From a virus, in the IMG/VR virus record IMGVR_UViG_3300045988_167206, positions 64,001 to 128,000 of that record: a stretch of DNA of 64,000 nt, one strand, 5' to 3'. Under the pieces are notes generated by a model that worked only from the letters and a program-made list of their open reading frames with translations, had not been told where the DNA came from and made no database searches. Below are positions 25,801 through 59,872 of this stretch, piece after piece (within the stretch, counting starts at the first letter, position 1; the number at the start of each line of letters is the position of its first letter). Both the position numbers and the translations under genes were made by a program.

Positions 25801-28800
25801 TGGCATAATTATCAGATGCACGAACATATAAATTACGCCCTTTAATATAATCCTCCATCAGTGTATTTGAATCATTTATTGCTTTTGTCAGATAATTATT
25901 TTTAGTAGAAAGGACAGTAGAATTTTCTGATTTTGACTGAGCAAGATCAATGCGATTCTCAAATCTAGTTACAAGTCTTTCGAACCAATCAACAACGTTT
26001 TTCCATGGATCTTCCCAGCTTTTAGAAGAAGATGAACTTCCTCCACCAGATCCACCTGAAGAACCAGAGTTTCCACCACCACCGGAATTATTATTTCCAG
26101 AAGATTTAGTAGAAGAGGATTTTTTTGAAGAAGTATCTTTAAAATTAAATCCAGTAAGAGCATAAGCGTTACAGCCTAAACTTCCAGTGGCATAAGCCCT
26201 TGCATTACTAGAAGTTTTTCCATGCTCTAGTAAATCTTTTGTCTGAGAAGCATTAAATATAATGTCTCCCTTTTTAAGATTTTCAAAATGTGGACCACCT
26301 GGAAGAAGTGACCATACTCCATCACGAACAATTGATTCCGTACCTACTTCATTTGTGAGAGCTGTTTCATTTTTGCCTAAAGCAACATTTCCTCCAGCGT
26401 GAGCAGAAGAGAGTGGTTTCAAGTTGAGCATATTGTATGCAGTGCCATCTGCATGAGCTATAGAAGTCATTGTACCAGAAGCACTAGCACCTTTTGGCGC
26501 ACCTTCTACCTTTGCATGATATACAACTATTCCACTTTTATTTGGAGGAGTCCATGATGCAATATTACTAGCATTAACAATATAATTCACAACCCCTGTT
26601 TTGTCCGGTGGTTTATATGCTTGAACATCACTGTCTTCAACCGTATATTTAGCTTTAGCATCTTTGTCCTCTGGTTTATAAGAATCAACCTCAGCACTAT
26701 CTTTTTTAATAGTGGCATTAACAGTTATTTGTTTGTTTTGACCATTTAATTCGTCCGCTTTTGCATTAATAGCATCAAGTTCTTCTTGGTTTTGTACATC
26801 ACAAGTAATTGTTACAGGTGTATTATCTGGAACAGATTCCATAGCAGAAGTAAGATCTTCAACCTGATCCTCGCCGGTTACAGAAACATCTACTGTGGCA
26901 GTTGTGCCTTGTGGAATAGAAGCTAATGAATTTTTTAAATCATCTGTGCCTCCGGAGGTAGAGAGATTCGCCTCAATAGTATAAGTACTTCCAGACAAAT
27001 TCTGTAAGTCAGCCGACGTTTCTTCTGCTTCTTCCTGTGCTTCTTCAAGGCTAGAAGTATCGACTTCAGGTTTAAGAACACCCAATCCTTCAAGAGCCTG
27101 TACAAGCTGGTCTTTTGTTAGGCCGGCCTGATCAGCAAGATTCTGCAATGCATCTTCGGCTTGTTCCATACCTTCAACATTATAAGCACCATCACCAAGT
27201 TGGATTCCTTCAAGATCAGCGGCTGTATATTGTTTCAGAGCATTGAAATCAGCTTCAGTTGCTTCTGCATTTGCTTCATGAGCCTGTTTTACAGCTTCAA
27301 GAGAATCGGCGTATTCTTTGGCAGCAGTTGGATCAGAAATTCCCATTTCCTCTGCGGTAAGAGGAGAGTCAAATGTTCCAATGCCCTTATCGTGAAGCAT
27401 CTGATTAAAAGCATCTTCGTCAACTTCGAACTCAGGAGTTAATTTAATTTTATTATCCTTAGCTAATTGCTGGATACGATCGTACAATCCTTGAGCATAC
27501 TCCTGTTGCGCCGGATCATCTTTAACCTGTTGGTATTCTTTTGCAAAATCATTGATTGTCTGTTTTACAGTATTCAGATTTTGCACTTCACGGTCAGTAG
27601 CACCATTTACATATGTATCAAGAGCAGTATTAGCATCATTGACTTGATTCTTTAAATCATCTACAACTTGTGCTTGCTGTTCAATCGCATATTGTGGTGC
27701 ACCATTGGCAACTAATTCAGAGTACTTTTCTTGGGCAGAAATAAGCTCGTTAGTCTTTTCCGTAACATTAGCCTGTCCTTCAGCTACAGATGTAATGTCT
27801 GTAACAACAGCACCCATATCGTCATAACGTCCAAGATAATCTCTAAATTGTTCTTCTCCCATTCCGAGAGTTTTTGCGGCATCAGCGGAATCAGTAAATG
27901 CCATTTGCCATTGTTTGGAACCATCTTCTAGAGTTTTATAAGTAGCTAAACCTTTTGATTTAAGAAGATCAAGAAATTTCAATGGTCCAGATGCATCGTC
28001 TGTATAATATGGTTTCCATTTATTATAGTTTTCAATGAAATTATCTTCATCGCTAAACCCATAAGGGGAGAAGTAAGCAGCACCTTCTTTAAAATCATCT
28101 GTACCGGTTTCACCGTTATCGTACATTTCTTTTAAAGATTCTAACTTACTCTTTGTTGCTTTATAATGATCTCCTGCATTTGGAGTACTTTCAGCGTTGG
28201 CAGCTCTTTGCCATTGACTGGTCTGTTCCTGCATATTTTTATACTGAGCCATGTATTCATTTTGAAGATTCTTAAGTTCTTCAAGTTTTTGTTTTTCTGA
28301 CTCAATAATATTGCCATTGGAATCATAGATTTTCTTCTCTTGATCAGCAATCTGAGATGCAAAATCTTTTGTGACCATTTCATTTTGAGCTTTAGAAAGT
28401 TCCTGGAATCTATCAGTATTTAACTGTAATCCCTTTGCAGATCTTGTAAACAATCCATTTATATCAGTTCCCTGAGCAGTAAGATCACTAAACTGAGTAA
28501 CAAGATTCTTCACGGAGTCACTTGTTAATCCAGTTTCACTATTTGTTTCTCCAATAGCAGTACTCAAAGCACTGGCCAGATTTGTAACATCAGTAATAGG
28601 AAGATTCTGGATTTCTTCAAGCCATCCGGCCTGAGAAGCTTTCATATTCTCTATGGACATTTGAGCAGACTGGATTTGATCCTGGTATCCTTTTATCTTC
28701 TCATTGTCTTCATCAGTAAGAGGAGAGATACCTTTACTTTCTCTGATTGTACGGATGTTATCCTGGTAATCTTTAATCTGTTTATTCAGATTTGAAATCT

Positions 28801-31134
28801 GAGCATTACCATTTTCAACAAGATTATTGTAATCCTGTGCAGTTGCTTTCTGGTTGAATGCAGATTTATTATTCATTAGAGTCTGCATATCTGAAGCGTC
28901 AGTCTGAAGTCTGGTCAAATCTTTTGAGAGATTTTCAAGATCCTGTTCGTTTGCATCAAGACGAACCTGAACCTCAGTATCCTCAATAGCAGACTTCCAT
29001 TCATCGTAAGAAGCATTTGCCATAGAAGGGTCAAGGGATAGTTTAAGAATAGCCTGCATAGCTATTTCATTATCACCATATTCCGACATGAGCTTATTCA
29101 TTGTGCTTACAGCAGAATCTTTAGCTACAGTGCCCTTAGCATTATCAAGAATATTGGTTCTTACTGTTTTTTTGATATCATCCGCAGACATATCAAATCC
29201 TGCAGTATTAATACCATCCAAAATACTCTGAATATATCTATCAGCTTGAGCTAATTCCTTCGGATCAGTCGTATCTTTTACAGCATCACGAATCTTTCCA
29301 ATAGCAGTAGAAGCTTTATCAGTAGCAAGTTTCTGTAATCCTTGCTGTAAATTATCTGTTTCAGTAGCTAATTCTGGGAATTGCTGAATAAGATCTGTGA
29401 TATCAGAACTTTTCATATCACCGGATTTCAGAGAATCCATAGCAGTTTTGATACTAGAGATACTTGACTGGAAATTATCTGTTACGGTATCAATGTCTGT
29501 TGCTGTGTCTTCAGTTGAATTTTTGAAGAGAGAAGAGAATGTTTTAGAGGCATCTTCGGAAGAAGCTTTAGATTCTTCCATTGCTTTATTCCAATTGGAA
29601 GTAAGTGTACCTATTCCCCAATCATTCTCTTCAGGATCAAGACCATTATTCTGGAGATAATTCCAGAAAGTTTCTATATCTTTATCTGATTTATCCTTAA
29701 AAAATGCATCAGCGATTGAGCCGCCAGAAGTACTCGGAAGTTTTGACATAAATGCAAAAGTATCTTTAAGATTTTCTTTTACACCTTCAATATTTAATGC
29801 TTCCGGATCAACTATAGCCATGATATAAGATGCCAAATCATCTGCTGATATTTTCTTATCTCCAAGTGCTGATTTGAGATCAGAATAATCTTTATTACTA
29901 TTCAGAACATCAAGAATTCCCTGGGAACCTTTAGATTTGCCAATGTCCTCAAGTTTTGTCTGTAAGTCTGCATAATCAGCGAGAGCAAAAAGATTGTTTA
30001 GTTTGTCCTCTGTGTCGGAAGATGAACCTATGAGATTTGAGTAATTATCAATAAGAGAATTAACCTGGTCAATGGTACCCTGGTATTTCTTATCAAGAAC
30101 TGTACCATCATCTTTAAGCATACTCTGTGACTGATCTGAGATGTTAGAAATCATTTCAGAGAGTTCTGATTTTTGATTATCAATACCTTCTTGCTGTTTT
30201 TCAAGAGTTTTATTTTCCTCTTCAGTAATTAGGTCTATATTACCGCCATGACCTTTTTTGATATTTTCATAGGCGGTATCATATCTATCCTGAAGATGCT
30301 GGATATAATCCATTTTTGCCTGAGCTTCATCAAGATCATTAACATATACTTTGGCTTGAGGATTATAATTTCCGCTACCGTCAGAGAAATAATCCTGCTG
30401 CATAGATTTCTTATTTAGATCTTTTTGTGCAGCATTTGCCTCAGCAGTCTTAGCACTGTCGGCTAATCTTTGTTTCAATGATACTTGAGCACCAAGAAGT
30501 TCATTTTGATCTTGAAGATTATTTAATTCTTGACTCTCTTCTAGTGATCTGTTTTCTTTTACTCGAAGCTCTTGAATACGATCTTGGTTAGTTTCGTATG
30601 CAGATTGTGCGGTTTCAAGATCAGATTGAGCTGTTTCATTTTTTTTCTGAGCTTTTTGGTATTTCTTTGTGGTGGTTGCTTTTGTAAGATCAAATTGGTT
30701 GTCAAGACCTTTCCATGCTAATGTACCAACCCCAATAGCACCTGCAATTCCAAGAATAGGTAAAAGAGGTTTAATGAATGCTAATAAACCAGAGCCTGTA
30801 TCTTTTAGAGATCCTAATAAACCTGCACCTATGGCTACATCTCCAACTTTACCGGCTCCTCCGGCGGTATAACCGATTTTAGCCATCATGTCTTCGGTAA
30901 TATTTTCTTTACCAAACGCTTTAACCATAGCTTGATACGCAACACCAGAGTCTAAATTTTTTCCATATTTGGTTATCCAATTTACACCTTTACTTGCATT
31001 ACCAGATGCGGCTAATGCAGTTGCTAAACTAACAACATCTTCTCTGGTAGAAACACCATTAAATAAACGTGTTGCATTATTGAATTTTCCGATTTTCTTT
31101 AATGACACTGTTGAGTAAATATGATACAATAAAT
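22838..31134 (-). CDS. tape-measure protein, third coding block (open frame of about 2765 codons)
   Basis: The frame is open from 31134, after an in-frame TAA at 31135-31137. There is no SD and no ATG near its 5' end.
- It opens with Gly-rich hydrophobic TMP-like segments (GAGLLGSLKDTGSGLLAFIKPLLPILGIAGAIGVGTLAWKG).
- More than 2 kb of coiled coil follows.
- It also has a Ser/Gly linker, a Big_2-like Ig domain and two copies of a TMP C-terminal-type motif. Confidence 0.7.
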
Positions 31135-31161
31135 TTATTTAATATAGGAAGGAAGATGTTT

Positions 31162-31710
31162 ATGGCTCTTATAACTTGTCCAGAATGTGGTCAAAAAATT
31201 AGTGATAAGTCTCCTGCATGCATCCATTGCGGATATCCTTTACAAGAAATAAAAAAATATGAAACTATATGGAATGGCCATGACATATCTAAAATTAATG
31301 AATATTTAGATAGTCTTAATGCTAATGAAAAGCAAGATTTTATTTTGTTCTGTGAATATATAGAAGATCGTAATAAACCATTGGTCGATCCAACAAAAAA
31401 AAATACAAATAAACCATTTCAAGGAGAATATTATAATAAATTTTATGATTTTATGGCAGAGCTAGGATATTATTATAAAATATCAAATGATGATGCCGGT
31501 AAATTCATCTTAGATTATTTACGCAGCAAAAATTATACCTCTCCTCAACCATCAACTCAAACCAATCAAGTCCGTTGTCCAAAGTGTGGCTCTACATCAA
31601 TCACAACAGAGAAGAGAGGATTCGACCTTATGTGGGGATTCCTGGGATCTGAATGGGTTACATACAATGTATGCCAGAAGTGTGGATACAGGTGGAAGAT
31701 TGGAAGATAG
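31162..31710 (+). CDS. double zinc-ribbon protein (about 182 aa)
   Basis: The preferred start is MALITCPECGQKISDKSPACIHCG at 31162, after TAGGAAGG. The C-terminal ribbon is RCPKCGS...CQKCGYRW. It lies on the opposite strand to all flanking genes. Confidence 0.6.
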   Translation: MALITCPECGQKISDKSPACIHCGYPLQEIKKYETIWNGHDISKINEYLDSLNANEKQDFILFCEYIEDRNKPLVDPTKKNTNKPFQGEYYNKFYDFMAELGYYYKISNDDAGKFILDYLRSKNYTSPQPSTQTNQVRCPKCGSTSITTEKRGFDLMWGFLGSEWVTYNVCQKCGYRWKIGR

Positions 31711-31730
31711 AGAGATAGGAGAGAAATATT

Positions 31731-33014
31731 ATGGGAAGTCATATATGGGGTAATATATATCTGTATTGTTGGGAAAATAAAATTGATTTTCGACAGGTAT
31801 TCAACAAGCTTTTGAATACTGAGCTGGAAGCATATAAAGAGGGTTGCGAACAATTCTTGGTTCCTTATACATACAATAAAAATAGTCAATTTAACAGAAG
31901 AAAGCTTGTTGGGTCTACATTAGAGCTTGATGTGGATGTATTAACTTCACATTTTCACATTCCTATTGAAGAAATTTTTAATCCGCGTAATTATCTAGAA
32001 AGATTAATAAAATTAATGAAAACAGTTTCGTATGATTGTAGATCAGATGCAGAATATGAATTTTTCCATTATAAAGACAAATCTCTGCAATTTCGTATTA
32101 AGTATGAAACAATTTACAATGAAAATTATGAAATCGGGGCTAATATTCCTGTTGAGTATCGTTTTTCCAAATATTATAATGAAGCTACTCATTCGTTCCA
32201 TTATCGTATTATATTAAATCCGAATTTTCTCCTATCATTTTCTTGTACATCAGGAGATATCAGTATGGCATTTTACAATCTCAATGATTATGTTAATTTC
32301 GAATTAATCTGTTTATACGATGGGGATGCTGATATTATCGCAAATTATTTTAAAGAAACATCAAAATATGATGTTTTTACAGAATATAAATATAAAGAGA
32401 AAGTTGCAGATAACGGAATTACGTGGATTTCCCGTACTGATGAAATTCTTTCAGAGATATCCAGTGATGACTATCGGATCATTGACTTCAAATGTATTGT
32501 TGTAAAATCTGCAATACGTAAATGTGATAATGAAGAACATCATACTAAAATTATAAATGGCATTTTCTTTACAATATCAAGAAAAACTGGAAATGTTAAA
32601 TACACAATAATTCCTTTAGTATATTGCCAAGAATGTAATGTTTATTTTATGTATGATTTTGAATATAATAGTTTATGTATGCAAGGAAGACCTCTTTGCA
32701 AAATCTATAATCACCTACATAAATCTGGTTCAGCAGATATATTTTCACAGTTAAATACAGAGTCTATTTTTAAAGTATGCGGTTATACGGTTGATGTAAA
32801 TGAGGGGTTATCAGATAAGGCTAGACATAATCTTTTGGACTTCCTTATTAATAGAAAAATTGTAACAGTATTGCAAACATTAAATTTTCTACAGTGGCTC
32901 ATCAACAGTAGAAAAAATAACTTAAATATGTATAATGCTGTACAAAAATGGGAGAATGATTTTTCTTATATAAATGAAAAGTATAATTCTTCACAAAATG
33001 TTATTGTTGTATAA
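31731..33014 (+). CDS. hypothetical protein (427 aa)
   Basis: GGAGAG lies 8 nt before the ATG. Has a Cys/His cluster (CDNEEHH...CQEC) and a helical C-terminus (LSDKARHNLLDFLINRKI...AVQKWENDFSYI). No family recognised. Confidence 0.6.
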   Translation: MGSHIWGNIYLYCWENKIDFRQVFNKLLNTELEAYKEGCEQFLVPYTYNKNSQFNRRKLVGSTLELDVDVLTSHFHIPIEEIFNPRNYLERLIKLMKTVSYDCRSDAEYEFFHYKDKSLQFRIKYETIYNENYEIGANIPVEYRFSKYYNEATHSFHYRIILNPNFLLSFSCTSGDISMAFYNLNDYVNFELICLYDGDADIIANYFKETSKYDVFTEYKYKEKVADNGITWISRTDEILSEISSDDYRIIDFKCIVVKSAIRKCDNEEHHTKIINGIFFTISRKTGNVKYTIIPLVYCQECNVYFMYDFEYNSLCMQGRPLCKIYNHLHKSGSADIFSQLNTESIFKVCGYTVDVNEGLSDKARHNLLDFLINRKIVTVLQTLNFLQWLINSRKNNLNMYNAVQKWENDFSYINEKYNSSQNVIVV

Positions 33015-34047: not shown

Positions 34048-34422
34048 TTAACCTACGGCTTTTGTAATACCACCGGCGTTTAAGAATTTTAATCCAGCCA
34101 TAGTAGCATTTTTTACGGTCATGGCACCAAAAATTGCAGTAATTAGTGCCGGGATTGGTCCTAAAGTTTTTTCAAGTCCAGTGAATCCTTCAGTTAAGCT
34201 ATGTACGAAATCTAAGGCTCCACCAACTTGATCTGACTGATAAAAGTTAAGCCAGAACTCATCCATCTGAGTTTTAATAGCTTGTACTTTACCACTAAAC
34301 GATTCCATGTATTTCTCTTGGTTTGCTTCTGCATTACCTTGAGTAGTGGTAGCTTCTTCAGCTAAACTCATGGAATCTGTGAATGCGTCCAATATGTTCT
34401 TGAATTTTGAAGTTTGTCTTGT
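34048..34422 (-). CDS. tape-measure protein, second coding block (about 124 codons)
   Basis: The frame is open from 34422, after a TAG at 34423-34425. It reads TRQTSKFKNILDAFTDS...LGPIPALITAIFGAMTVKNATMAGLKF. This is the expected continuation of the TMP core that breaks off at 36005. There is no SD or ATG at its 5' end. Confidence 0.6.
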   Translation of the reverse strand, partial: TRQTSKFKNILDAFTDSMSLAEEATTTQGNAEANQEKYMESFSGKVQAIKTQMDEFWLNFYQSDQVGGALDFVHSLTEGFTGLEKTLGPIPALITAIFGAMTVKNATMAGLKFLNAGGITKAVG

Positions 34423-34478
34423 CTAACTTGTTAAGCATGGTTCGCAACACCATACTGATATTGTTAATTTATCTCCTT

Positions 34479-35393
34479 TTATATTTCTATTAAGGCTCCA
34501 TATTTAATAAAACCTTCAAACAATATATCTTCAATATAAATTTGATCCCAAAATGGAATACGAATTAAATGAATTTTATTATCTTTACAATATTGAGTCT
34601 TTATATTGTCTCGTTTCTTTGTATTTATCATATTGCTATAAGCCTCTTCGTGTGCCATTGTGTTACCTAATGTTACTGGCATATAATGAAATTCTCCATC
34701 ATATTCAATTGCAATATTAGAATCAGGTAAGTAATAATCAAACGGCAGAGGGTTTTTATCTCTACAATCAGAGAATCTTTTTTGTGGTTCGTATTTAATT
34801 CCCCATTTATCTAAAATATCTCCAATCATACTTTCATAATATGTTTTTTTACAATAAGGACAACCAGGACATTTTGATAACGTATATCCTTCTTTAACCT
34901 GGACACCTTTATCTTTATGTACGTTACATATATATTTTACATATGTATATCCATTTTCATGATAATGAGAAACATAGGTAAAATTGTGTTTTTCACATTC
35001 TTCTTTCCAATGATCGACATTGAATATTTTATTTTTCAGTGTACGTTCTCTACCACAATAATAGCACCCTCTATCACGCAGAAATTCGCATAATTTAATT
35101 TCTTGAATACCTTTATCCTTATGTTTTGTACAGATATATTTCATTTTAGTTGTGTAATTTTTGTATTCCTTATCAATTAATTCATATCCTCTATCAGAAA
35201 ATAATTTATTTACTTCATCATAAGTATATTTTTTAGTATTATGAATTACTTTCTTTTCACGAATTAACCCCATACGTCTTCTTTTGGTTATTATTGCACC
35301 TTTAGTAGTTCCGATATTTTTTGCTAATTCATCATCAAATTGTATTTTCCAATTTTCTTTTAAATAGTTTTCTTTATCAGATGTCCATTTCAT
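34479..35393 (-). CDS. homing-endonuclease-like protein (304 aa): HTH, two zinc-ribbon modules and a PD-(D/E)xK-like C-terminus
   Basis: - N-terminal W..ENYLKENW...LAKNIGTTKGAIITKRRRMGL is an HTH.
- There are duplicated modules: YICTKHKDKGIQ...CYYCGR and YICNVHKDKGVQ...CPGCPYCKK.
- The C-terminal PLPFDYYLPDSNIAIEYDGEFHY is typical of Vsr/DUF559-type endonuclease folds. Confidence 0.6.
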   Translation of the reverse strand: MKWTSDKENYLKENWKIQFDDELAKNIGTTKGAIITKRRRMGLIREKKVIHNTKKYTYDEVNKLFSDRGYELIDKEYKNYTTKMKYICTKHKDKGIQEIKLCEFLRDRGCYYCGRERTLKNKIFNVDHWKEECEKHNFTYVSHYHENGYTYVKYICNVHKDKGVQVKEGYTLSKCPGCPYCKKTYYESMIGDILDKWGIKYEPQKRFSDCRDKNPLPFDYYLPDSNIAIEYDGEFHYMPVTLGNTMAHEEAYSNMINTKKRDNIKTQYCKDNKIHLIRIPFWDQIYIEDILFEGFIKYGALIEI

Positions 35394-35414
35394 GTATTAT
35401 CACTCCATTTATTA

Positions 35415-35609
35415 TCAATTTTTTGTATAAAAAATCGCCAATGCTTCAAATAACTTTGACGTTTTTGTATATTTGTATGTAGTTACTTCATTTATCACTT
35501 TTATAAATGAAGGTTGTATACCAACACTCCATAAATACTCTTTTTCAGGAGTATATTGAGTGGAATATTCTTTATCAAATTTTTTCATAAATTTATTTAA
35601 AATTAACAA
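35415..35609 (-). CDS. small ORF (64 aa) at the 5' end of the intron ORF region
   Basis: TTG start, or an internal ATG at codon 8. Ends 21 nt before the endonuclease-like ORF. It could be a detached N-terminal piece. Confidence 0.3.
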   Translation of the reverse strand: MLILNKFMKKFDKEYSTQYTPEKEYLWSVGIQPSFIKVINEVTTYKYTKTSKLFEALAIFYTKN

Positions 35610-36004
35610 TATCCTTATACTTTCATATAAGTACAGACTATTTCTTCACCTACCGACCTTTACGGTTTAGGGTGTCCTTTTCCATTTAACGGGTTTTCAC
35701 CGACTTCATTAGCGATTAAGCCGTACTTCTATTGATTTGGATATTCAGGATTCCCACCTTTATTTTATAGCTCAATAAGAACATTTCCAAATCCCGACAT
35801 GGGAATAGTCGTTGAATGTTCACCCTCGTCTCAAGTACCATATGATCTATGGAATACGTTAGGGTGCTTCACTGCATGAACAGCCAATCCTTACGTTGTC
35901 AAACCTTCATAATCTAGTTTCCTGATTATTGTGGTGTAAGGCTCTAAGGCATTACCTGCAATTAAAATCATTCCAGTATGAATTTCTTCATACACAGTCC
36001 AACA

Positions 36005-39000
36005 TTAGGCTGCTACATCAAATGCGATTTTTGCTTGCTGTGCATCAGTCAAATCATTCCATTTGGATTTCAGTTCGGATAATACAGTGATAATACCACG
36101 ATCTGATCCGTCTGGATTATAGACATCAACACCTACTGAATGTAAAGAAGCAGAAGCATTTGATAAATCTTCATTACTTACCTCATCTGCATATTGAGGC
36201 ATTTTACCGACTTTTGTGGTTCTCGTGATAATCGTTTTAATTGCATTACCAATTGAACTTCCATCTTCACGGGTTCTTTCAGCTACTTTTGCAGAAATCG
36301 CAGCTAACTGCTCATATGACATTCCTGCATCAAAAGCAACCTGACCTGATGCCTGAACAGCATCTGTCATTACTTTTATACCTTTAGCGTAATCCATACC
36401 CACGTTTGCTGAAATCTTATCCAATACGTCTACTACATGCATAGAAGCATCAGCGGCAGAAGTGGATCCATCTTCTAACATATGGAACTGCTGTAAGATA
36501 CCCTGTACCTGGTCAGCAGCAGTAGAAGCGTCAACACCACTTAAGTTACTCAAGATAGCAGTCGGTTTTGCAGTTTCCTGAATTTCTTTCGAAGTGGTAT
36601 TCATATTTGCATAGATCTGATAAATGTCCATTGTATTATCAAGAGACATAGAGAGATCTTTTGCCATGTCAACTGCAGAACTACCTAAATTCTGTAATTG
36701 ACTTTGTGACATATCCATTGTATAACTAATGGTTGTCAGTGCTTTATTATAATCCATAAATGTATTAAAGCCTTGTTTCATCTCATTAATGGCTTTATGC
36801 ATTATCTGAATGTTTCCAACATAAGATGTAATATCACCAATAGCACCTTTAAAGTTTCCAGATACTAATCCTTTAAGTCCCTGACTAAATGAAGAAAATC
36901 CAGTAGAAGTCTTAGTGGTATTTTGATACATAACACGAAGACTATCATTGGCTTTTTCAATGTTTCCAGTGAGTTTTACAACGTCTCCAGATGCAGTCTC
37001 AAAATTCATTGTGACTTTTCCGGTTGCATCATTTACAGACTGTGATATTTTATTGGTTAATCCAATTGAAGCAGCATAATCGGTCAATGCCTTTGAAGCA
37101 TCAGCAGTATCTTTGATCTGATGTGCCGTATTCTCAATCATTGTACCTTTACTTGTGGTTTTATTGAGTCCATCAGAAGTCTTTCCAAATTTTTCCATTG
37201 AAGCTACAAGCTCATCAATTCCTTTACTATATGCTTCAATGTCTTTTTGACCTTTTGTGCTATTCTTAAATGTATCATTAAGCTCTTCATACCTTGAATG
37301 AAAACCATCTAATTTTGCTTGGTAAAAACCTGTTTTATCCCCAATGTTTGTATATTTAATTAATTTCTCATGTGCTTGAAAATAATCCAAATCTTTTACG
37401 CCAAGGCCATTTTGGTAATAATCTTTATATGCTTCCGTTTGGTTACGTAACTCAAGCATACGTGAAACATAATCATTTACAGAAATAGATCCATTTTTAA
37501 ATTCTGTGGTAGCAGTATCAAGACCACTAGACAAAGAAGAAAATTGTGACTTAAAACTTTCAGATGCTCTTCCAGCATTTTGAATCTTGGAAACAAAAGA
37601 ATCAATATCTTTAGATAAAGAAGCAAAATTAGAATTTATAGTATTATTTTTATTTATGTTAGATTGTGAAATGAGATCTTGCATTTGAGTATCTGCATAA
37701 TCTTTTCCATAGATTTGAGAAACTTCTTTATACATATTCTCATAACTTTGTTTTGCTCTTGCTTGAGCAGCAGATAATAACATATGTTCTTGCTGAGAGT
37801 ATTTATCCGATGTAGAAAGTCCGATCAATTCTTTTTCAGTTTTAGCCTGAAGAGAATATTGTTCTTTCATATCATCAACTAAATTTTTATGATATTTACT
37901 TTCAGCGGCCTGAGCAGAAGTATAAGCCTTTGCATATTCGTCTGCTTTTTTTGCATTTAATATATTATTATTATTATTTTTGTCATTTTCATATGTATTT
38001 TTATAAAAAGATTCGACTTCTGTTTTTAATGCAGAAACTCTTTTTTTAGCTTCTTCAAATCGTTGAGCTACAGCAGTATCAGTGGAATTAATCTTGTATT
38101 CACTTTGTGCATTAACTAAATCTGCCTGTGCTTGTTTTAGCTCTTTAACTTTAGCGATAGCTGAATCATATTGTGACGTAAAATCAGCAGTTTTTTGTTT
38201 GAGCACATCTTGTTGAAAAGCATCATAAACATTTTGTTCAGCTTGGCCAAGTTTGCTTTTCTGTGTGTTAAAAGCATTTACACGATCTTCACCAAGAATA
38301 CCTTTGTTTTTCTCAATAAACTCATCAATATCTCCTAAACTTTTCTGCTTCTGATCTATTTCTTTTCGAATATTATTAATTAAATCATTAGAAGTACCTT
38401 TAGATTTAGCAGAAGATAACTCTTTATTTTTCTTTTCAAGTTCAGAAAGACCAGACATTAAATCTTCATACTGAGAAATAATTTGATCTGAAATTTTATT
38501 TTGAGAATAGTTTCTTAATGATGCATTAGATTTTTCTGCTTTTCGCATCGCCTCGTCAAATTCATCAATATCTTTTCCTTGAGATTCAAGCAAGGTTTTA
38601 TTCTTAGATATAAAATCGCTTATTTTAAAAGCGTTTGCAGTTTTTTCTAATGAAATTTTTTGATCTTTTAAATCTCTTAAATCACTTTGTAATTTTGTTC
38701 TATCTATGCCAGTATTAGATTTATCATCTAATTGTTTTTGTATATCAAGAATTTCTTTATTAACCTGGTTAAGTTTTTGAGCTTGTTTAACAGCTGTAGT
38801 ATATTGTCCTACGATAGACTGCGTTTTCTGCTTTTGAGTTGCCTCACGTTCCTCCTGATAGGCCTTTTTATTAGCATTAACAGCGATATTATTTTGATCA
38901 CGAAGTTTGGCCCAATTTGGTTTCATCCGTTCAGCAACTTGCTGTCTATATTGTGTCATACTATAATCTGAAGTAGGATCTTGATCATAAGCTCGTGCGA

Positions 39001-40957
39001 CGCTATCATGTTCTTGCTGCTGAATTTGTAATCTTTGAATCTCAGATTTTAAATTAGCTATTTTCCCGGAATCTCTTTGAGATTGTGGTTTTGTCATTTC
39101 AGCATATAATTTTTGTCTGTTAGATACTAAGGCAGCGGTAGTTTTAGCTGAATCCTGCTCTAAAGTTTCAAATTTAATACCAGTCCCAATTGTTGCACTC
39201 CAGGTGTTATTTGCCTGACTATAAGTTTGAGTCAAAGTATGAACTTTTCGATTTACATCTTTATATACTTTTGTAATTTTTTGACCATTACTAGCTGTTT
39301 TTTCGGCCAGTAATTGCATATCATCGAAGTTAGGAGTTCCTGGTACTGAAGGTAAAGTAGGATTTCCTGATGTTGGAGGAGTTGTTGGGAAAGTCGGAAT
39401 ATTTGAATTTTTTGAAGAATTAGATGCGACCGGTGTAGCAGGTATAGCTTTCAATCTTGGACCACGAGAAACTTTATATGCTAATTTTTCTTGTTTAGTA
39501 GCATCTTCCTGTGTGCGAGTTGTATCTTGCACAGCAATACCAAGTCTTTCGGCAGAATCAGCCATCTTATCCATATTTTCTGTGGTATTTCCTACAGTAG
39601 AAGCCACTACATTATTTATGTGATCTGTAGCTGTGTTAATAGTGTCTGCAGCTTTTTCTGCTTTTTTGGCTTGGGCAGTAGGAGATTTTTTACTATGGGT
39701 ACTTTTTTTAGAAGTCTGATTAGATTGGATAGCAGGTGTTTCTACAACTGGATTTCTAATAGCTTCTTCTAGACGAGGATAAGCTTCAGACCAAAATTTA
39801 CCATTTTCAGGATCATCTGATAAAGTTTGAATAGCAGTATCTAAATTTTTTAATTGCTCGCCTGATAGTCCGGTTCCACCTTTATTTTTATATACAACAA
39901 AATTTCTGAATAATTTTGCCAGCATAGTAGTGCTAAAATCATAAATACTTTTATCTCCACTTAAAACTTTTTCAAAATCTTTTTTTAAGATAGAAGAAGC
40001 TTCATCTGCTGTTACTGACGAGATATTTTTTAACATTTTATCTCTAGCACTAGATAAACTTTTATTTCCAGTTGTATTAAAGGCTTTGTCAGCTTTAATT
40101 TTCTGAGTAGCTTTACTTGTTTCAGTAGCAATAGTATTAATTCCATTCTGCATATTACTTATAGCAGCCTGAACCATATCTTCACTACCACTTTCAATAG
40201 CAGCCTGTAATGAATCAAGATCAAAAGCAGAAGCTATATAAGATTTAGAATCTTCTACAGAACTTTCTAATGTTTTACCTATTCCGATCAAGTTTTTATT
40301 ACCAGGTCTGGTTATATGGCTATCTTCTGGAATAGAATCTTTCATTTTACCAAAAAGAGCTTTGATATTTTTCTGATTTTGTTCATAAGTCAAAAGAAGT
40401 TTTTCCTGAGCTTTTACAGCTTGAATATAAGCAGCCATATCTGTAAAATCAGCGGTGTTAAGAGGTTGTGCATTTTCTTGCTGTGCTAACGCCCATTTTG
40501 TAGCTCTTGAATATTCATAGCGTTTTCTATATAATGCTTTATATTCATCAGAATCAACAGCCAGGGTTTTTGGCATTCCGTCACGAACACCTTTTATTTC
40601 ATTTGCATTTAATCTATATAAATTTGCCGGCAAAGTCTGAAAACTTGCATCATACCCACTTTTAACCGCTTTATTAATTATACTTTCTACTTGTTTGGCT
40701 TGAGCTGTAATTGCTTTTTTAGTAGAAGCAGAAAGAGAAGATTTACCAGTTGCTTCTATAATAGCTGGAATTTTTACAGTTGTCTTTTGTAATTTATCTA
40801 ATGCAGAAGTATCTGTCTTTAATTCAGCAGTTATTGTAGATTTCTTTCCGTCTAATTCATCAGCAGTGTTTTTTAATTCTAATAATTTTTCAATTGCTCT
40901 ATCAACAGCAGCGTCAGCATCAACGCCTACACGAACTCGTTTATCATATCCACTCAT
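36005..40957 (-). CDS. tape-measure protein, first coding block (about 1650 codons)
   Basis: The preferred ATG is at 40957, after AGGTGA; the track starts at a GTG at 40966. A long coiled coil comes first, then a TP901-type TMP core (MDYNKALTTISYTMDMSQSQLQNLGSSAVDMAKDL...TAILSNLSGVDASTAADQVQGILQQF...). The block ends abruptly at ...LTDAQQAKIAFDVAA followed by UAA. Confidence 0.8.
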   Translation of the reverse strand: MSGYDKRVRVGVDADAAVDRAIEKLLELKNTADELDGKKSTITAELKTDTSALDKLQKTTVKIPAIIEATGKSSLSASTKKAITAQAKQVESIINKAVKSGYDASFQTLPANLYRLNANEIKGVRDGMPKTLAVDSDEYKALYRKRYEYSRATKWALAQQENAQPLNTADFTDMAAYIQAVKAQEKLLLTYEQNQKNIKALFGKMKDSIPEDSHITRPGNKNLIGIGKTLESSVEDSKSYIASAFDLDSLQAAIESGSEDMVQAAISNMQNGINTIATETSKATQKIKADKAFNTTGNKSLSSARDKMLKNISSVTADEASSILKKDFEKVLSGDKSIYDFSTTMLAKLFRNFVVYKNKGGTGLSGEQLKNLDTAIQTLSDDPENGKFWSEAYPRLEEAIRNPVVETPAIQSNQTSKKSTHSKKSPTAQAKKAEKAADTINTATDHINNVVASTVGNTTENMDKMADSAERLGIAVQDTTRTQEDATKQEKLAYKVSRGPRLKAIPATPVASNSSKNSNIPTFPTTPPTSGNPTLPSVPGTPNFDDMQLLAEKTASNGQKITKVYKDVNRKVHTLTQTYSQANNTWSATIGTGIKFETLEQDSAKTTAALVSNRQKLYAEMTKPQSQRDSGKIANLKSEIQRLQIQQQEHDSVARAYDQDPTSDYSMTQYRQQVAERMKPNWAKLRDQNNIAVNANKKAYQEEREATQKQKTQSIVGQYTTAVKQAQKLNQVNKEILDIQKQLDDKSNTGIDRTKLQSDLRDLKDQKISLEKTANAFKISDFISKNKTLLESQGKDIDEFDEAMRKAEKSNASLRNYSQNKISDQIISQYEDLMSGLSELEKKNKELSSAKSKGTSNDLINNIRKEIDQKQKSLGDIDEFIEKNKGILGEDRVNAFNTQKSKLGQAEQNVYDAFQQDVLKQKTADFTSQYDSAIAKVKELKQAQADLVNAQSEYKINSTDTAVAQRFEEAKKRVSALKTEVESFYKNTYENDKNNNNNILNAKKADEYAKAYTSAQAAESKYHKNLVDDMKEQYSLQAKTEKELIGLSTSDKYSQQEHMLLSAAQARAKQSYENMYKEVSQIYGKDYADTQMQDLISQSNINKNNTINSNFASLSKDIDSFVSKIQNAGRASESFKSQFSSLSSGLDTATTEFKNGSISVNDYVSRMLELRNQTEAYKDYYQNGLGVKDLDYFQAHEKLIKYTNIGDKTGFYQAKLDGFHSRYEELNDTFKNSTKGQKDIEAYSKGIDELVASMEKFGKTSDGLNKTTSKGTMIENTAHQIKDTADASKALTDYAASIGLTNKISQSVNDATGKVTMNFETASGDVVKLTGNIEKANDSLRVMYQNTTKTSTGFSSFSQGLKGLVSGNFKGAIGDITSYVGNIQIMHKAINEMKQGFNTFMDYNKALTTISYTMDMSQSQLQNLGSSAVDMAKDLSMSLDNTMDIYQIYANMNTTSKEIQETAKPTAILSNLSGVDASTAADQVQGILQQFHMLEDGSTSAADASMHVVDVLDKISANVGMDYAKGIKVMTDAVQASGQVAFDAGMSYEQLAAISAKVAERTREDGSSIGNAIKTIITRTTKVGKMPQYADEVSNEDLSNASASLHSVGVDVYNPDGSDRGIITVLSELKSKWNDLTDAQQAKIAFDVAA

Positions 40958-40971
40958 ATTAATCACCTACT

Positions 40972-57596: not shown

Positions 57597-57620
57597 AACA
57601 ACTCCTCCTTGTATTCGTAA

Positions 57621-57695
57621 TGGATATAGTAGGACTCGAACCTACAAAAGCCTGATCCTAAGTCAGGTGCGTCTGCCAAATTGCGCCATACATCC
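57621..57695 (-). tRNA. tRNA with anticodon UAG (Leu-type) but a short variable arm
   Basis: Hand-folded cloverleaf:
- acceptor stem GGATGTA/TATATCC
- anticodon arm CCTGA-CTTAGGA-TCAGG
- 5-nt variable loop
- T arm GTAGG-TTCGAGT-CCTAC
- A73 discriminator, and no encoded CCA. Confidence 0.7.
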
Positions 57696-57700
57696 AGAGA

Positions 57701-57720
57701 AGGACAGTAAAGACTGTCCT
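57701..57720 (-). terminator. stem-loop between the phosphoesterase gene and the tRNA (terminator or processing hairpin)
   Basis: 8-bp stem AGGACAGT/ACTGTCCT with a 4-nt loop. The U-tract is poor. Confidence 0.3.
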
Positions 57721-57769
57721 GTAAAGAAATGTATAATATAAGCAGCAACGCCACTCGTATTATTTAAAT

Positions 57770-58957: not shown

Positions 58958-58965
58958 ATTTCTCC

Positions 58966-59187
58966 TTAAAGTTTCATTCCATCGGTTGCAGATCCAGAGA
59001 TTTCATCCAGATCAATAGTTTCTTCTGTTTTAGTAGTAGTAGATAAGTCAAAAGGCATATCTCCATAAGCCTTTTTAAAAATTTCATTGATGTCGATAAT
59101 TTCACCTGTACTATCAACAAGCTGATCATCTACCACATGTAGTCCTTTAAGTTTTCCATCGTATTTTACAGTTTTTTTTAATTCCAT
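58966..59187 (-). CDS. hypothetical protein (73 aa from the preferred start)
   Basis: The preferred ATG is at 59187, after AAAGGAG. Confidence 0.4.
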   Translation of the reverse strand: MELKKTVKYDGKLKGLHVVDDQLVDSTGEIIDINEIFKKAYGDMPFDLSTTTKTEETIDLDEISGSATDGMKL

Positions 59188-59269
59188 TATTTTTCTCCTT
59201 TTATTCCTTGACATATTGAAATAATCAATATAAAATGTTATTAGTGAAAGTTTACAATAAAATGTCTTA

Positions 59270-59872
59270 TTAAAGAATATCGTCTAATTCAAGATCCTGG
59301 CCAATAATTCCATCGACAATTCCACGTTCTTTAGCTTCTTCAGCAAACATATAATATTCACGATCCTTAATTTCTTCAAGAAATTCTGCAGTCATATTTG
59401 AATGTTCGATCATAAACTTATTCATACGCTCTTCAAGTGTGTCATAGAATTTCTGAATATCTTTTCCTTTATTTGAAGAGCTGATGTATCCTGTTTGTCC
59501 ATCATGATGAAGAACTACGGTTCCCGGGAAACAATATCTTTTATGTCCAGCTGCTAAAATATAACAAGCCATAGAAGCACACCTTGCAAAACCTATTGTT
59601 ACAATAGGTGTTTTAGACGTACAGATAGTACCTAATACCTGATAACCACATACGACATCACCGCCGCAGGAATTAATATATATATAAATTTTTTTTCGTT
59701 TACTAATAGGAATATCTTTATCTTCTTTATTCCATTTCATAATCATAAGACATACATTTTCAATGACATTATCATCGATATCCTCATTCAAAATGATTTT
59801 ACGTTCATTTAAATGTTCTTTTATAATAGCATCATAAATGCAATCATCATCTTTTAATGTAAATAATTCCAT
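59270..59872 (-). CDS. clpP: ClpP-family serine protease (200 aa from the preferred start)
   Basis: YINSCGGDV, the catalytic-Ser context ARCASMACYILAAG, and His in VVLHHDGQ. The C-terminal KDREYYMFAEEAKERGIVDGI parallels the ClpP RD..f.sA.EA...GliD. The preferred ATG is at 59872, after GGAGAAAA. Confidence 0.75.
   Translation of the reverse strand: MELFTLKDDDCIYDAIIKEHLNERKIILNEDIDDNVIENVCLMIMKWNKEDKDIPISKRKKIYIYINSCGGDVVCGYQVLGTICTSKTPIVTIGFARCASMACYILAAGHKRYCFPGTVVLHHDGQTGYISSSNKGKDIQKFYDTLEERMNKFMIEHSNMTAEFLEEIKDREYYMFAEEAKERGIVDGIIGQDLELDDIL

What the first reader, a model, noticed from the sequence alone, without database searches (positions are those of the whole stretch)
34423..36006. 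Group I intron-like element with a homing-endonuclease-like ORF inside the tape-measure gene
The 395 nt after the first TMP block carry recognisable group I core-like elements:
- a GAAA-capped hairpin (GUAUGAA-GAAA-UUCAUAC)
- a P4-like CACCC/GGGUG pair flanking a small hairpin
- UUCAACGACUA...AUGUCGGG, which resembles the conserved R element (Tetrahymena has UUCACAGACUAAAUGUCGG)
- AAGAAAUAGUC, which resembles the S element (AAGAUAUAGUC)

GACUA/UAGUC can form P7. The core is followed by a 304-aa ORF with an HTH, duplicated zinc ribbons and an ...FDYYLP..IAIEYDGEFHY nuclease-like end. A 55-nt tail then ends in ...UUAG just before the resuming TMP frame.

A candidate P1 is CAGCCU / GGACUG, with a U-G wobble at the U of the GCC-UAA boundary. 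I could not reconcile P1, P10 and the reading frame by eye, so the exact splice sites are unresolved.
Basis: partly seen in the sequence, partly recalled or inferred. Interest (0 to 1): 0.7.

Follow-up and report, generated by a model that had tools for sequence, protein, structure and literature searches.

The report
Mobile group I intron in tail gene
A 1,585-base self-splicing-type (group I) intron carrying its own DNA-cutting "homing" enzyme interrupts the tail tape-measure gene of a human-gut phage; this is a real but ordinary kind of selfish element, already known from tape-measure genes of other phages.

Summary
The finding holds. On the minus strand, window 36007..34423 (1,585 nt) is a precise insertion into a tape-measure (TMP) gene. 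Twenty-three related phage contigs carry the same gene uninterrupted, and the closest one differs from the window by exactly this block.

The first ~400 nt and last ~130 nt fold as a group I ribozyme with IA2-type P7.1/P7.2. Across 10 relatives, 93% of cells pair and 52 of 86 pairs show two-sided changes. Rfam RF00028 matches full length (38.2 bits, E=2.5e-8, below the 50-bit cut-off), but only when the core is searched alone.

The P9.1 loop holds two ORFs:
- The 304-aa endonuclease, whose C-terminal domain has the Vsr / I-Bth0305I (EDxHD) fold.

- The "P4-like" CACCC/GGGUG helix is P6.
- The 5' splice site follows C (GCAGCC|UAAUG), one base before the proposed U·G.

Group I introns at several TMP sites are already documented (Bacillus cereus-group prophages), so this is a new member of a known kind.

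Unexplained points are the C-G pair at the 5' splice site, the role of the 57-aa protein, and a weak P3 in this copy. Splicing itself was not tested.

The parts
36008..40966 (-). TMP exon 1. The ORF is listed from GTG at 40966; the true start was not examined. It ends ...AKIAFDVAA (GCA GCC), and the in-frame TAA that follows is the first three intron bases.
   Evidence: ORF list. Pfam PF10145 PhageMin_Tail at aa 1431-1649, E=2e-18. Colinear with uninterrupted homologues.
34423..36007 (-). Whole group I intron, 1,585 nt: U1 = 36007, terminal (omega) G = 34423.
   Evidence: blastn against the intron-less relative L034 leaves exactly this block unmatched. Junction GCAGCC|ACAAGA matches the empty sites GCAGCC|ACACGT and GCAGCG|ACAAGA. 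Length checked.
35995..36012 (-). P1: exon CAGCC (36012..36008) plus intron U1, loop AAUGUU, and internal guide GGACUG (36000..35995). The UGU just 5' of the guide can pair with exon-2 ACA (P10).
   Evidence: The P1 hairpin covaries across the family: CAGGCAA/UUGCCUG, GAGGCUA/UAGCCUC, CAGGUG/UGCCUG, CUGGUA/UACCAG, UGGACA/UGUCCA, CAGCU/GGCUG. In the window it has a C x A mismatch or a bulged A.
35976..35993 (-). P2 hairpin GUAUGAA-GAAA-UUCAUAC.
   Evidence: 7 pairs, 100% of cells paired, 6 of 7 pairs with two-sided changes (helix 2).
35821..35970 (-). P3 5' strand (UGAUUU, 35970..35965) and the P4-P6 domain.
- P4: AUUGCA/UGCAGU.
- P5: AAUGCC/GGC(U)GUU.
- P5a: CCUUAC/GUAAGG.
- P5b: AUAAUC/GAUUAU, inside the invariant 29-mer.
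- P6: CACCCU/AGGGUG.
- P6a: CCAUA/UAUGG.
   Evidence: Helices 3-8. P5b C-G to U-A compensation. Coordinates. P3 pairing tested (5/6 in the window, 6/6 in the closest relatives).
35806..35816 (-). R element UUCAACGACUA: J6/7 plus the P7 5' strand GACUA.
   Evidence: P7 GACUA/UAGUC is kept as GAUCA/UGAUC in L013 (double compensation) and as GGCCA/UGGUC in L100. Aligned to the RF00028 consensus.
35690..35804 (-). Peripheral hairpins between P7 and P3': P7.1 (UCCC-AUGUC-GGGA), P7.2 (AUUUGGA...UCCAAAU with an inner AGG/CCU hairpin), and two further small hairpins (GCUU/AAGU; CGG-UGAAAAC-CCG).
   Evidence: Helices 10-14; 7 of 7 P7.2 pairs have two-sided changes. The minimal relative L019 keeps only P7.1 and P7.2.
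35636..35687 (-). Candidate P3 3' strand AAAUGG (35687..35682), P8 (CCU..ACCG/CGGU.AGG, 35671..35649), and the S element AAGAAAUAGUC (35646..35636: J8/7 plus the P7 3' strand).
   Evidence: (helix 15). L029 shows a C-G to U-A compensation in P8 (read from the alignment).
35614..35631 (-). P9 hairpin CUUAUA-UGAAAG-UAUAAG.
   Evidence: Helix 16. Stems differ with compensation among relatives.
35600..35613 (-). P9.1 5' strand GAUAUUGUUAAUUU.
   Evidence: Perfect 14-bp complement to 34470..34457. Relatives have 12-15 bp stems of entirely different sequence at the same place.
35415..35588 (-). Intron ORF 1: 57 aa (MKKFDKEYSTQY...), DUF5659-fold protein of unknown function.
   Evidence: - 821 database clusters at E<=1e-3, 72-100% identical among those listed, nearly all ~57 aa.
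- Always lies between an intron core and an endonuclease gene.
- AlphaFold2 model pLDDT 91.
- Foldseek BFVD top hits are DUF5659 proteins, TM 0.83-0.88, E 5e-4 to 8e-4.
- No Pfam hit by sequence.
34479..35393 (-). Intron ORF 2: 304-aa homing endonuclease. It has an N-terminal GcrA-like HTH, two C..H...C..C zinc modules, and a C-terminal Vsr-like (EDxHD-type) nuclease domain with FDYYLP...IEYDGEFH...RD..K.
   Evidence: - PHROG 559 at 3.3e-41 and PHROG 9084 at 6.1e-25.
- 294 homologues.
- Invariant D219, E230, D232, H236, D262, K265 and the Cys/His sets.
- AlphaFold2 pLDDT 90.
- Foldseek PDB: 1cw0 Vsr and 3r3p I-Bth0305I rank 1 and 2.
- Relatives hit PvuRts1I-like_N, DUF2726, DUF559 and RAP.
34457..34470 (-). 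P9.1 3' strand AAAUUAACAAUAUC. It closes the ~1.13-kb loop that holds both ORFs.
34423..34455 (-). P9.2 hairpin GUAUGGU-GUUGCGA-ACCAUGC (34455..34435) and the 3' terminal segment UUAACAAGUUAG, ending in omega-G at 34423.
   Evidence: The loop GUUGCGA is conserved. Stems covary: AUGGU/ACCAU, ACGAU/AUCGU, ACGAAU/AUUCGU, GACAAUG/CAUUGUC, AUGUAGU/ACUACAU, UUGGAU/AUCCGA.
34048..34422 (-). TMP exon 2: 124 codons plus stop (TRQTSKFKNILDAF...GGITKAVG*).
   Evidence: It is 74-89% identical to the corresponding part of uninterrupted TMPs. Against L034, 37 synonymous and 15 non-synonymous codon differences. No start codon at its 5' end.

Best explanation
Window 36007..34423 (minus strand) is a mobile group I intron of the phage IA2 type, inserted at a codon boundary (Ala|Thr) near the C-terminal end of the PhageMin_Tail domain of the tape-measure gene.

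**Splicing (inferred).**
- After transcription of the late operon, the RNA folds into P1-P9. The ~1.13-kb P9.1 loop carrying the two ORFs is held out of the way by a 14-bp stem.
- An exogenous guanosine attacks after GCAGCC.
- The freed exon end, held on the internal guide GGACUG, then attacks after the terminal G of ...AAGUUAG.
- This joins ...FDVAA to TRQTSKF... and gives a 1,777-aa TMP.

**Homing (inferred).**
- The 304-aa product is a Vsr-like (EDxHD-type) homing endonuclease with HTH and zinc-module DNA-binding parts.
- In a mixed infection it would cut intron-less TMP alleles near the insertion site.
- Recombinational repair would then copy the intron in.

**Shown here:** the exact insertion boundaries, the conserved and covarying ribozyme fold, the nuclease fold, the presence/absence polymorphism, and the occupation of several neighbouring sites by related introns.

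**Inferred:** splicing, the cleavage target, and any role of the 57-aa protein.
For: **RNA**
- RF00028 matches full length at 36018..35614: 38.2 bits, E=2.5e-8.
- On 10 distinct family members, 93.0% of cells pair, against 80.6% when shuffled and 30-39% when slid. 52 of 86 pairs have changes on both sides; 0 of 500 shuffles reach this.
- P7 is compensated twice: GAUCA/UGAUC in L013 and GGCCA/UGGUC in L100.
- P9.1 and P9.2 stems are all different in sequence but always paired.
- ORF-less (L013, ~550 nt) and minimal (L019) members keep the same core.
- The core has partial similarity to the intron position between endolysin fragments in Staphylococcus phage CF5, and to regions beside homing-endonuclease genes in Bacillus phages AR9 and PBS1.

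**Insertion**
- 23 of 51 related TMP loci are uninterrupted.
- L034 (89% aa identity) differs from the window by exactly 1,585 bp.
- Empty sites read GCAGCC|ACACGT and GCAGCG|ACAAGA.
- L052/L053 are exact empty sites for the L014-type intron 7 nt downstream.
- Exon 2 has no start codon at its 5' end and shows 37 synonymous against 15 non-synonymous codon changes versus L034.

**Protein:**

**Precedent:** IA2 and IA1 introns at three TMP sites in Bacillus cereus-group prophages, with P1 adapted to each site (PMC2504315).
Against: - The Rfam score is below the curated 50-bit cut-off. The hit is lost in larger searches, and relatives L013, L019 and L022 give no Rfam hit.
- The last exon base is C, paired with G, instead of the near-universal U·G wobble.
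- P1 in the window has a C x A mismatch or a bulged A.
- The best P3 candidate has a G·G mismatch that the closest relatives lack. This copy could therefore splice less well than its relatives.
- The endonuclease has no sequence-level match to any solved Vsr-like structure, and the Foldseek E-values are modest (4e-3 and 8e-3).
- No transcript or biochemical data were available.
Confidence: 0.9

Rival explanations
1. Decayed, non-splicing intron remnant. The ribozyme of this particular copy is crippled, so the TMP is made as a truncated exon-1 product ending at the TAA at 36007..36005, or the phage is defective.
For: - The window copy has a G·G mismatch in the best P3 candidate where L029, L003 and L014 have a C-G pair.
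- There is a mismatch or bulge in P1 and a C-G pair at the splice site.
- The Rfam score is sub-threshold.
Against: - All other helices are intact in the window. It was the reference row for a structure with 93% pairing.
- Both intron ORFs are full length. The endonuclease keeps all family-invariant residues.
- Exon 2 is intact, in frame and under purifying selection.
- The same P1 with C at -1 is shared by at least 11 other contigs of this insertion type, so it is not a private lesion.
Confidence: 0.06
2. Free-standing homing-endonuclease cassette that split the TMP gene into two separately translated genes, as in endonuclease-split genes of T-even-like phages, with no RNA splicing.
For: - Gene callers on related contigs annotate exon 1, the two ORFs and a 114-aa 'exon 2' as separate genes.
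- Free-standing endonucleases are common in phages (my own knowledge).
Against: - About 530 nt of non-coding sequence around the ORFs is conserved and covaries as a group I fold. A free-standing cassette does not need this.
- An ORF-less member of the family exists (L013).
- Exon 2 begins directly at the junction, with no start codon or ribosome-binding site.
- The insertion is base-exact at a codon boundary.
Confidence: 0.03
3. Another kind of intervening element: an intein, a group II intron, or read-through by stop-codon recoding or translational bypass.
For: - Gut phages are known to recode stop codons (10.1101/2021.08.26.457843, listed).
- The gene is interrupted by an in-frame TAA.
Against: - The endonuclease ORF is not in frame with, or fused to, the host protein, so this is not an intein.
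- There is no reverse transcriptase and no group II Rfam hit.
- The 10 tRNAs in the window include no suppressor.
- The intervening 1,585 nt is absent from homologues, so it is not read through.
Confidence: 0.01

Closest known systems
Group I introns TMP-IVS1/IVS2 (IA2) and IVS3 (IA1) in tape-measure genes of Bacillus cereus-group prophages (Tourasse & Kolstø 2008, PMC2504315)
   Same: - Same host gene class.
- Same ribozyme class.
- Several nearby insertion sites in a conserved part of the TMP.
- Closely related cores whose P1/internal guide differs according to the site.
- Present or absent among related phages.
   Different: - No detectable sequence relationship was established here.
- The host is an uncultured ~90-180 kb gut phage lineage.
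- The encoded endonuclease is Vsr-like, and there is an extra 57-aa ORF.
- The last exon base is C.
Phage T4 nrdD (sunY) intron with I-TevII (IA2)
   Same: From my own knowledge of the T4 intron: IA2 core with P7.1/P7.2, the ORF placed 3' of the catalytic core in the P9.1 region, and a terminal P9.2 hairpin just before the 3' splice site. The window shows the same layout.
   Different: - The T4 sequence was not compared here.
- Different host gene.
- I-TevII is a GIY-YIG enzyme.
- The window intron has an elaborated P5a/P5b arm and extra hairpins after P7.2.
I-Bth0305I, prototype of the EDxHD (Vsr-like) homing endonucleases, in the recA group I intron of Bacillus phage 0305phi8-36 (PMC3239194; PDB 3R3P)
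   Same: - Intron-encoded in a phage of a Gram-positive host.
- C-terminal Vsr-like nuclease fold: Foldseek rank 2, TM 0.69 on the target.
- Conserved acidic/His residues with Vsr-like spacing: E187, D219, D232, H236, D262.
- N-terminal DNA-binding region with an HTH.
   Different: - No sequence-level match.
- The N-terminal part here is a GcrA-like HTH plus two DUF723/treble-clef-like zinc modules, rather than NUMOD motifs.
- Residue equivalence was not verified by superposition.
Group I introns of Herelleviridae (Staphylococcus Twort/K-like lysin-gene introns) and of Bacillus phages AR9/PBS1
   Same: These are the only cultured-phage sequences with blastn similarity to the core, 75-82% over 57-122 nt. 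The matches lie between endolysin fragments or beside annotated homing endonucleases.
   Different: The similarity covers only parts of the core, and the host genes and endonucleases differ.

Membership tests
Group I intron (Rfam RF00028 Intron_gpI) | Covariance-model match at or above the curated gathering score (50 bits) | tested here: inconclusive
   Full-length match (model 1-253) of 38.2 bits, E=2.5e-8, when 35590..36040 is searched alone. Nothing is found at gathering threshold or in larger searches, and nothing for relatives L013, L019 and L022. The cut-off is a curation threshold, not a property of the RNA.
Group I intron | Conserved core: P3-P9 with the P3/P7 pseudoknot topology, R and S consensus elements, and P7 forming the guanosine-binding helix | tested here: met
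   - R is UUCAACGACUA and S is AAGAAAUAGUC.
- 16 helices in canonical order show 93% pairing and 52 of 86 pairs with two-sided changes.
- P7 is compensated in L013 and L100.
- P3 covaries 6/6 in six relatives, but is only 5/6 in the window, at a shifted 3' site.
Group I intron | P1: the 5' exon end pairs with an internal guide sequence near the intron 5' end | tested here: met
   The P1 hairpin is present in every member, and its sequence follows the exon at each insertion site.
Group I intron | U at the last exon position in a U·G wobble. This is very highly conserved but not absolute: natural C·G exceptions exist (Hur & Waring 1995, title seen). | tested here: not met
   The last exon base is C, paired with G, in the window and in the L003, L014, L001 and L008 types. 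It is U·G in relatives L007 and L100 and U-A in L022.
Group I intron | Terminal G (omega-G) at the 3' end, with removal restoring the host reading frame | tested here: met
   The intron ends ...AAGUUAG at 34423. The ligated sequence GCAGCC|ACAAGA equals the uninterrupted alleles.
Group I intron | Guanosine-dependent self-splicing | not testable with these tools
   Needs in vitro transcription and splicing, or RNA data.
Subgroup IA2 | P7.1 and P7.2 hairpins between the P7 5' strand and P3' | tested here: met
   Helices 10 and 11 (3/3 and 7/7 pairs with two-sided changes). The minimal member L019 retains exactly these two. Subgroup-specific covariance models were not available.
EDxHD / Vsr-like homing endonucleases | Vsr-like nuclease fold | tested here: met
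   Foldseek against PDB with a pLDDT-90 model gives 1cw0 Vsr (E 4.4e-3, prob 1.00) and 3r3p I-Bth0305I (E 8.4e-3, prob 1.00, TM 0.69) as ranks 1 and 2, followed by RAP-domain proteins and AbaSI. Family members hit the Pfam Vsr-like families PvuRts1I-like_N, DUF559, DUF2726 and RAP.
EDxHD / Vsr-like homing endonucleases | Composite catalytic motif E...D...x...H...D | tested here: inconclusive
   E187, D219, D232, H236 and D262 are invariant in 36 homologues, with spacing like Vsr E25/D51/H64/H69/D97. No residue-level superposition or sequence alignment to 3R3P or 1VSR could be obtained.
EDxHD / Vsr-like homing endonucleases | Site-specific cleavage of the intron-less allele next to the insertion site | not testable with these tools
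   Only indirect support: occupied and empty alleles coexist among close relatives.
DUF5659 (PF18903), for the 57-aa ORF | Match to the Pfam model | tested here: not met
   The window ORF and two orthologues have no Pfam hit. The small ORF at the same position in L022 does match (1.6e-5). The profile comparison of the two is weak (hhalign prob 34%, E 4e-4).
DUF5659 (PF18903), for the 57-aa ORF | Same fold as DUF5659 proteins | tested here: met
   AlphaFold2 pLDDT 91. The best Foldseek BFVD matches are DUF5659 proteins with TM 0.83-0.88 and rmsd 0.8-1.6 A. Nothing significant in PDB.
Intein | Intervening protein in frame with and fused to the host protein | tested here: not met
   Exon 1 runs into TAA at once. 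The ORFs have their own starts and lie 419 and 614 nt into the element.

The most novel reading that the evidence does not exclude
This gut-phage intron lineage may depart from textbook group I behaviour in two linked ways.

1. It routinely uses a Watson-Crick C-G pair (or U-A) instead of the U·G wobble at the 5' splice site.
2. It carries a third, strongly conserved component: a 57-aa DUF5659-fold protein encoded first in the P9.1 loop, which travels with two unrelated endonuclease families.

The most novel reading not excluded is that this small protein is a functional intron factor. It could be a splicing cofactor that compensates for the non-wobble splice site, or a helper or regulator of homing. 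That would give DUF5659 its first function.
Probability: 0.2. Interest if true: 0.55.

Novelty: new member of a known kind. Interest (0 to 1): 0.3.

Why it matters
**Annotation.** The TMP of this phage, and of dozens of related gut-phage contigs, should be joined across 36008/34422 into one 1,777-aa protein. It should not be called as a truncated TMP plus three or four hypothetical genes.

**Method.** Rfam's group I model with default filters missed a bona fide intron in a 64-kb and even a 2-kb search. Intron counts in phage metagenomes based on such scans are therefore underestimates.

**Biology.** The case adds a well-populated example of one ribozyme lineage hopping between at least five sites within about 30 codons of a tape-measure gene, and into other giant genes, while exchanging endonuclease cargo. 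It also supplies natural variants of the splice-site pair (C-G, U·G, U-A) and a conserved small intron protein. Both are cheap to test. None of this changes current understanding of group I introns.

Tried and rejected
- **Rfam at scale.** The search at gathering threshold on the whole window and at E<=10 on 34200-36300 found no intron. Only the 451-nt search did. Rfam on relatives L013, L016, L019 and L022 found nothing.
Rejected. No 3' site ending in G restores the frame, and the empty sites place the boundary after the C.
- **Rfam's own P3 assignment (GAUU/AAUC inside a hairpin loop).** Rejected. That loop is missing in L019 and does not covary. Replaced by the sites tested.
- **IS607-like transposon for the plus-strand ORFs at 31102-33014.** Rejected. 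They are a zinc-ribbon protein and a protein with no family match.
- **A second intervening sequence after exon 2.** Rejected. Uninterrupted homologues also end at ...VG*.
- **The 57-aa protein as a maturase compensating for the C-G splice site.** Weakened. C-G introns of the L003, L014 and L008 types lack it, while the U·G intron L007 has it.
- **Sequence searches of the endonuclease against PDB** (single sequence, profile, C-terminal domain alone) gave nothing useful. Only the fold comparison did.
- **Stop-codon recoding.** No suppressor tRNA in the window.
- **Other introns in the window.** A regular-expression scan for R...S element pairs found only this one. This is a weak test.
- **Hur & Waring 1995.** The paper could not be read. 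Only its title was seen.

Full report
**1. What is at the coordinates**

All genes in this part of the window are on the minus strand.
- A 1,653-codon ORF (40966..36005) carries a PhageMin_Tail domain (PF10145, E=2e-18) at residues 1431-1649. It stops at a TAA directly after ...AFDVAA.
- Downstream come about 400 nt without a long ORF, a 64-codon ORF (57 codons from its ATG at 35588), a 304-codon ORF (35393..34479), and a 56-nt tail.
- An open frame then runs to 34048.

**2. The block is a precise insertion in a tape-measure gene**

A 181-aa query was built by joining the end of the first ORF to the downstream frame. It found 51 related loci in IMG/VR.
- In 23 loci the match is continuous.
- In the other loci it starts at residue 58 (window-type insertion site) or residue 60 (a site 7 nt downstream).
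- One locus is cut off.

The uninterrupted alleles read ...GATGTAGCAGCC|ACACGTCAGACA... or ...GTCGCAGCG|ACAAGACAAACA.... The window reads ...GATGTAGCAGCC[intron]ACAAGACAAACT....

blastn of the closest intron-less contig (L034, 89% aa identity) against the window aligns up to 36009 and resumes at 34423. This leaves 1,585 bp unmatched.

With the requirement for a terminal G, the intron is 36007..34423 and exon 2 is 34422..34048. A one-base shift to the left is equally compatible with the DNA comparison but would end the intron in A.

Three observations imply that exon 2 is translated as part of the TMP.
- It has no start codon at its 5' end.
- It differs from L034 at 37 synonymous against 15 non-synonymous codons.
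- It ends at the same ...VG* as the uninterrupted genes.

**3. The non-coding parts form a group I ribozyme**

Rfam results:
- Nothing was found at gathering threshold on the window, nor at E<=10 on 2.1 kb.
- When 35590..36040 was searched alone, RF00028 aligned over its full length (1-253) to 36018..35614: 38.2 bits, E=2.5e-8. The cut-off is 50 bits.
- Scaled to the whole window, this would still be about 4e-6.

Independent evidence comes from relatives.
- An invariant 29-mer of the P5b arm occurs in 32 IMG/VR contigs.
- It also occurs in GenBank record MT835469 from human faeces.
- Together these give 23 distinct cores.

I built ORF-deleted versions of 10 distinct members and wrote the structure on the window sequence. 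The pair count was as follows.

| Measure | Result |
|---|---|
| Pairs / helices | 86 / 16 |
| Cells paired | 93.0% |
| Cells paired, shuffled control | 80.6% |
| Cells paired, slid controls | 30-39% |
| Pairs with changes on both sides | 52 |
| Same, shuffle mean | 22.1 (0 of 500 shuffles reach 52) |

Helices that MAFFT aligns poorly were checked sequence by sequence.
- P1 follows the exon sequence at each insertion site.
- P9.1 is a 12-15 bp stem of completely different sequence in each type.
- P9.2 keeps the loop GUUGCGA on covarying stems.
- P7 (GACUA/UAGUC) becomes GAUCA/UGAUC in L013 and GGCCA/UGGUC in L100.
- P5b shows a C-G to U-A exchange.

The order of elements is: P1, P2, P3, P4, P5(a,b), P6(a), P7, P7.1, P7.2, extra hairpins, P3', P8, P7', P9, P9.1 (with the ORFs), P9.2, 3' splice site.

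This is the IA2 arrangement. To my knowledge the ORF placement matches the T4 nrdD/sunY intron. An ORF-less member (L013, ~550 nt) and a minimal member (L019) keep the same core.

The only similarities to cultured phages are partial matches to two kinds of site.
- The intron position between endolysin fragments of Staphylococcus phage CF5 (Twortvirinae).
- Regions beside homing-endonuclease genes in Bacillus phages AR9 and PBS1.

**4.

- CACCC/GGGUG with its inner hairpin is P6/P6a, not P4. P4 is AUUGCA/UGCAGU.
- AUGUCGGG after the R element is the P7.1 hairpin.
- CAGCCU/GGACUG is indeed P1, but the exon ends at the C. The U that can wobble with G is the first intron base.
- The tail is not a loose 55 nt. 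It contains the 3' strand of P9.1 and the P9.2 hairpin.

**5. The splice-site pair**

For the L014-type intron the boundary is unambiguous. The empty site L052/L053 is identical over 54 nt, and the inserted DNA begins with T and ends with G. The last exon base is therefore the C of GAGGC, paired with the G of GCCUC.

The window type (GCAGCC|) and the L001 and L008 types (CAGGC|) also end in C, by colinearity. Relatives L007 (CAGGU/GCCUG) and L100 (CAGCU/GGCUG) have the canonical U·G, and L022 has U-A.

Natural C·G exceptions have been reported (Hur & Waring 1995; only the title was seen). To my knowledge, C-G slows the first step in the Tetrahymena ribozyme.

In the window, P1 also has a C x A mismatch (or a bulged A). 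The best P3 candidate, UGAUUU/AAAUGG, has a G·G where L029, L003 and L014 have C-G. Six other members form P3 with the hexamer just 5' of P8, 6/6 with covariation.

This copy may therefore be a somewhat weaker ribozyme. I cannot tell without an experiment.

**6. The cargo**

*The 304-aa ORF*
- It matches PHROG 559 ('HNH endonuclease', 3.3e-41) and PHROG 9084 ('homing endonuclease', 6.1e-25).
- It has 294 homologues at E<=1e-5.
- In an alignment of 36, the invariant positions include two C..H...C..C sets and D219, E230, D232, G233, H236, D262 and K265.
- The N-terminus resembles the GcrA HTH weakly.
- An AlphaFold2 model (pLDDT 90) has E. coli Vsr (1cw0) and the I-Bth0305I catalytic domain (3r3p) as its two best PDB matches. 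RAP-domain proteins and AbaSI, which are also Vsr-like, follow.
- Family members hit the Vsr-like Pfam families.
- The spacing of the invariant acidic and His residues matches the EDxHD motif described for I-Bth0305I. Residue equivalence could not be verified.

*The 57-aa ORF*
- There are 821 clusters at E<=1e-3. Those listed are 72-100% identical, and nearly all are ~57 aa.
- In every context examined it lies between an intron core and an endonuclease gene. This holds in TMP genes (one of which has two such introns) and in other very large genes.
- Its model (pLDDT 91) has the DUF5659 fold: BFVD TM 0.83-0.88. Nothing significant in PDB.
- It accompanies either the Vsr-like enzyme (window, L001, L029) or an HNH-type enzyme (L007).
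- It is alone in L022 and absent from the L003, L014, L008 and L019 types. Its presence therefore does not track the C-G splice site.
- Its function is unknown.

**7. Mechanism**

Shown:
- exact boundaries
- ribozyme fold
- nuclease fold
- presence/absence polymorphism
- related introns at five or more sites within about 30 codons, each with P1 matching its site
- exchange of endonuclease type

Inferred:
- guanosine-initiated two-step splicing that joins ...FDVAA to TRQTSKF...
- homing through cleavage of empty alleles by the 304-aa enzyme during co-infection

**8. Comparison with what is known, and novelty**

- Group I introns at three sites of TMP genes, with related IA2 cores and site-adapted P1, were described in Bacillus cereus-group prophages (PMC2504315).
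- EDxHD endonucleases in phage group I introns are known (PMC3239194).
- Gut phages rich in group I introns have been reported, with splicing confirmed by metatranscriptomes (PMC12880540).

The element is therefore a new member of a known kind. The phage is an uncultured ~90-180 kb lineage. Its portal is 25-31% identical to those of large siphoviruses of Bacillota.

**Verdict**

- Confidence that this is a group I intron with a homing endonuclease: about 0.9.
- Interest: 0.3. The modest remaining curiosities are the non-wobble splice-site pair and the conserved DUF5659 protein.

Noticed in passing
window 35415-35588 (-): A conserved 57-aa DUF5659-fold ORF is the first gene in the intron's P9.1 loop. 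It has hundreds of near-identical database clusters and is always found between a group I core and an endonuclease gene. Its function is unknown.
   Followed up: yes
L090 (ENA ERZ28535870 NODE_227), 1-5525: A related phage has two tandem introns of this family in one TMP gene: exon | 58 aa + 331 aa | 146-aa exon | 57 aa + 312 aa | 114-aa exon.
   Followed up: partly
L095-L099 and L100-L104, around 3090-5200: The same intron architecture (~400-nt core, 57/65-aa ORF, endonuclease) splits other genes of gut phages, including a protein of more than 5,000 aa (>=2,791 + >=2,816 aa). L100 has a canonical U·G P1 (CAGCU/GGCUG) and a compensated P7 (GGCCA/UGGUC).
   Followed up: partly
window 31102-33014 (+): Two plus-strand ORFs sit inside the minus-strand late operon just after the TMP: a 202-aa zinc-ribbon protein and a 427-aa protein with no family match. 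Related phages carry a LytTR response regulator and a PemK toxin at this position, so it looks like a variable cargo slot. It is not an IS607-type element.
   Followed up: partly
window 493-2814 (-): A 773-aa tail protein has an Mtd_N (major tropism determinant N-terminal) domain and a phage tail repeat. It could be the target of a diversity-generating retroelement. No reverse transcriptase or template repeat was looked for.
   Followed up: no
window 8020-15333, 17982-21737, 22838-31129 (-): Three very large tail-region ORFs (2,437, 1,251 and 2,763 aa) follow the TMP. Only a Big_2 domain was recognised in the largest.
   Followed up: no
window 57620-63544 (-): A cluster of 10 tRNA genes (Leu x2, Tyr, Trp, Ser, Thr, Gly, Met, Pro, Asn) with no suppressor. 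Neighbouring genes include a ClpP protease (59270-59917), a beta-CASP/metallo-beta-lactamase nuclease (59904-61349; the Pfam Anti-Pycsar_Apyc1 family hits the product of a similar gene on other contigs) and an exonuclease (57770-58957).
   Followed up: partly
window 34200-36300 and whole window: With default or medium filters, Rfam/Infernal missed this intron completely. It appears only when about 450 nt are searched. This is relevant to any intron census made with such scans.
   Followed up: yes
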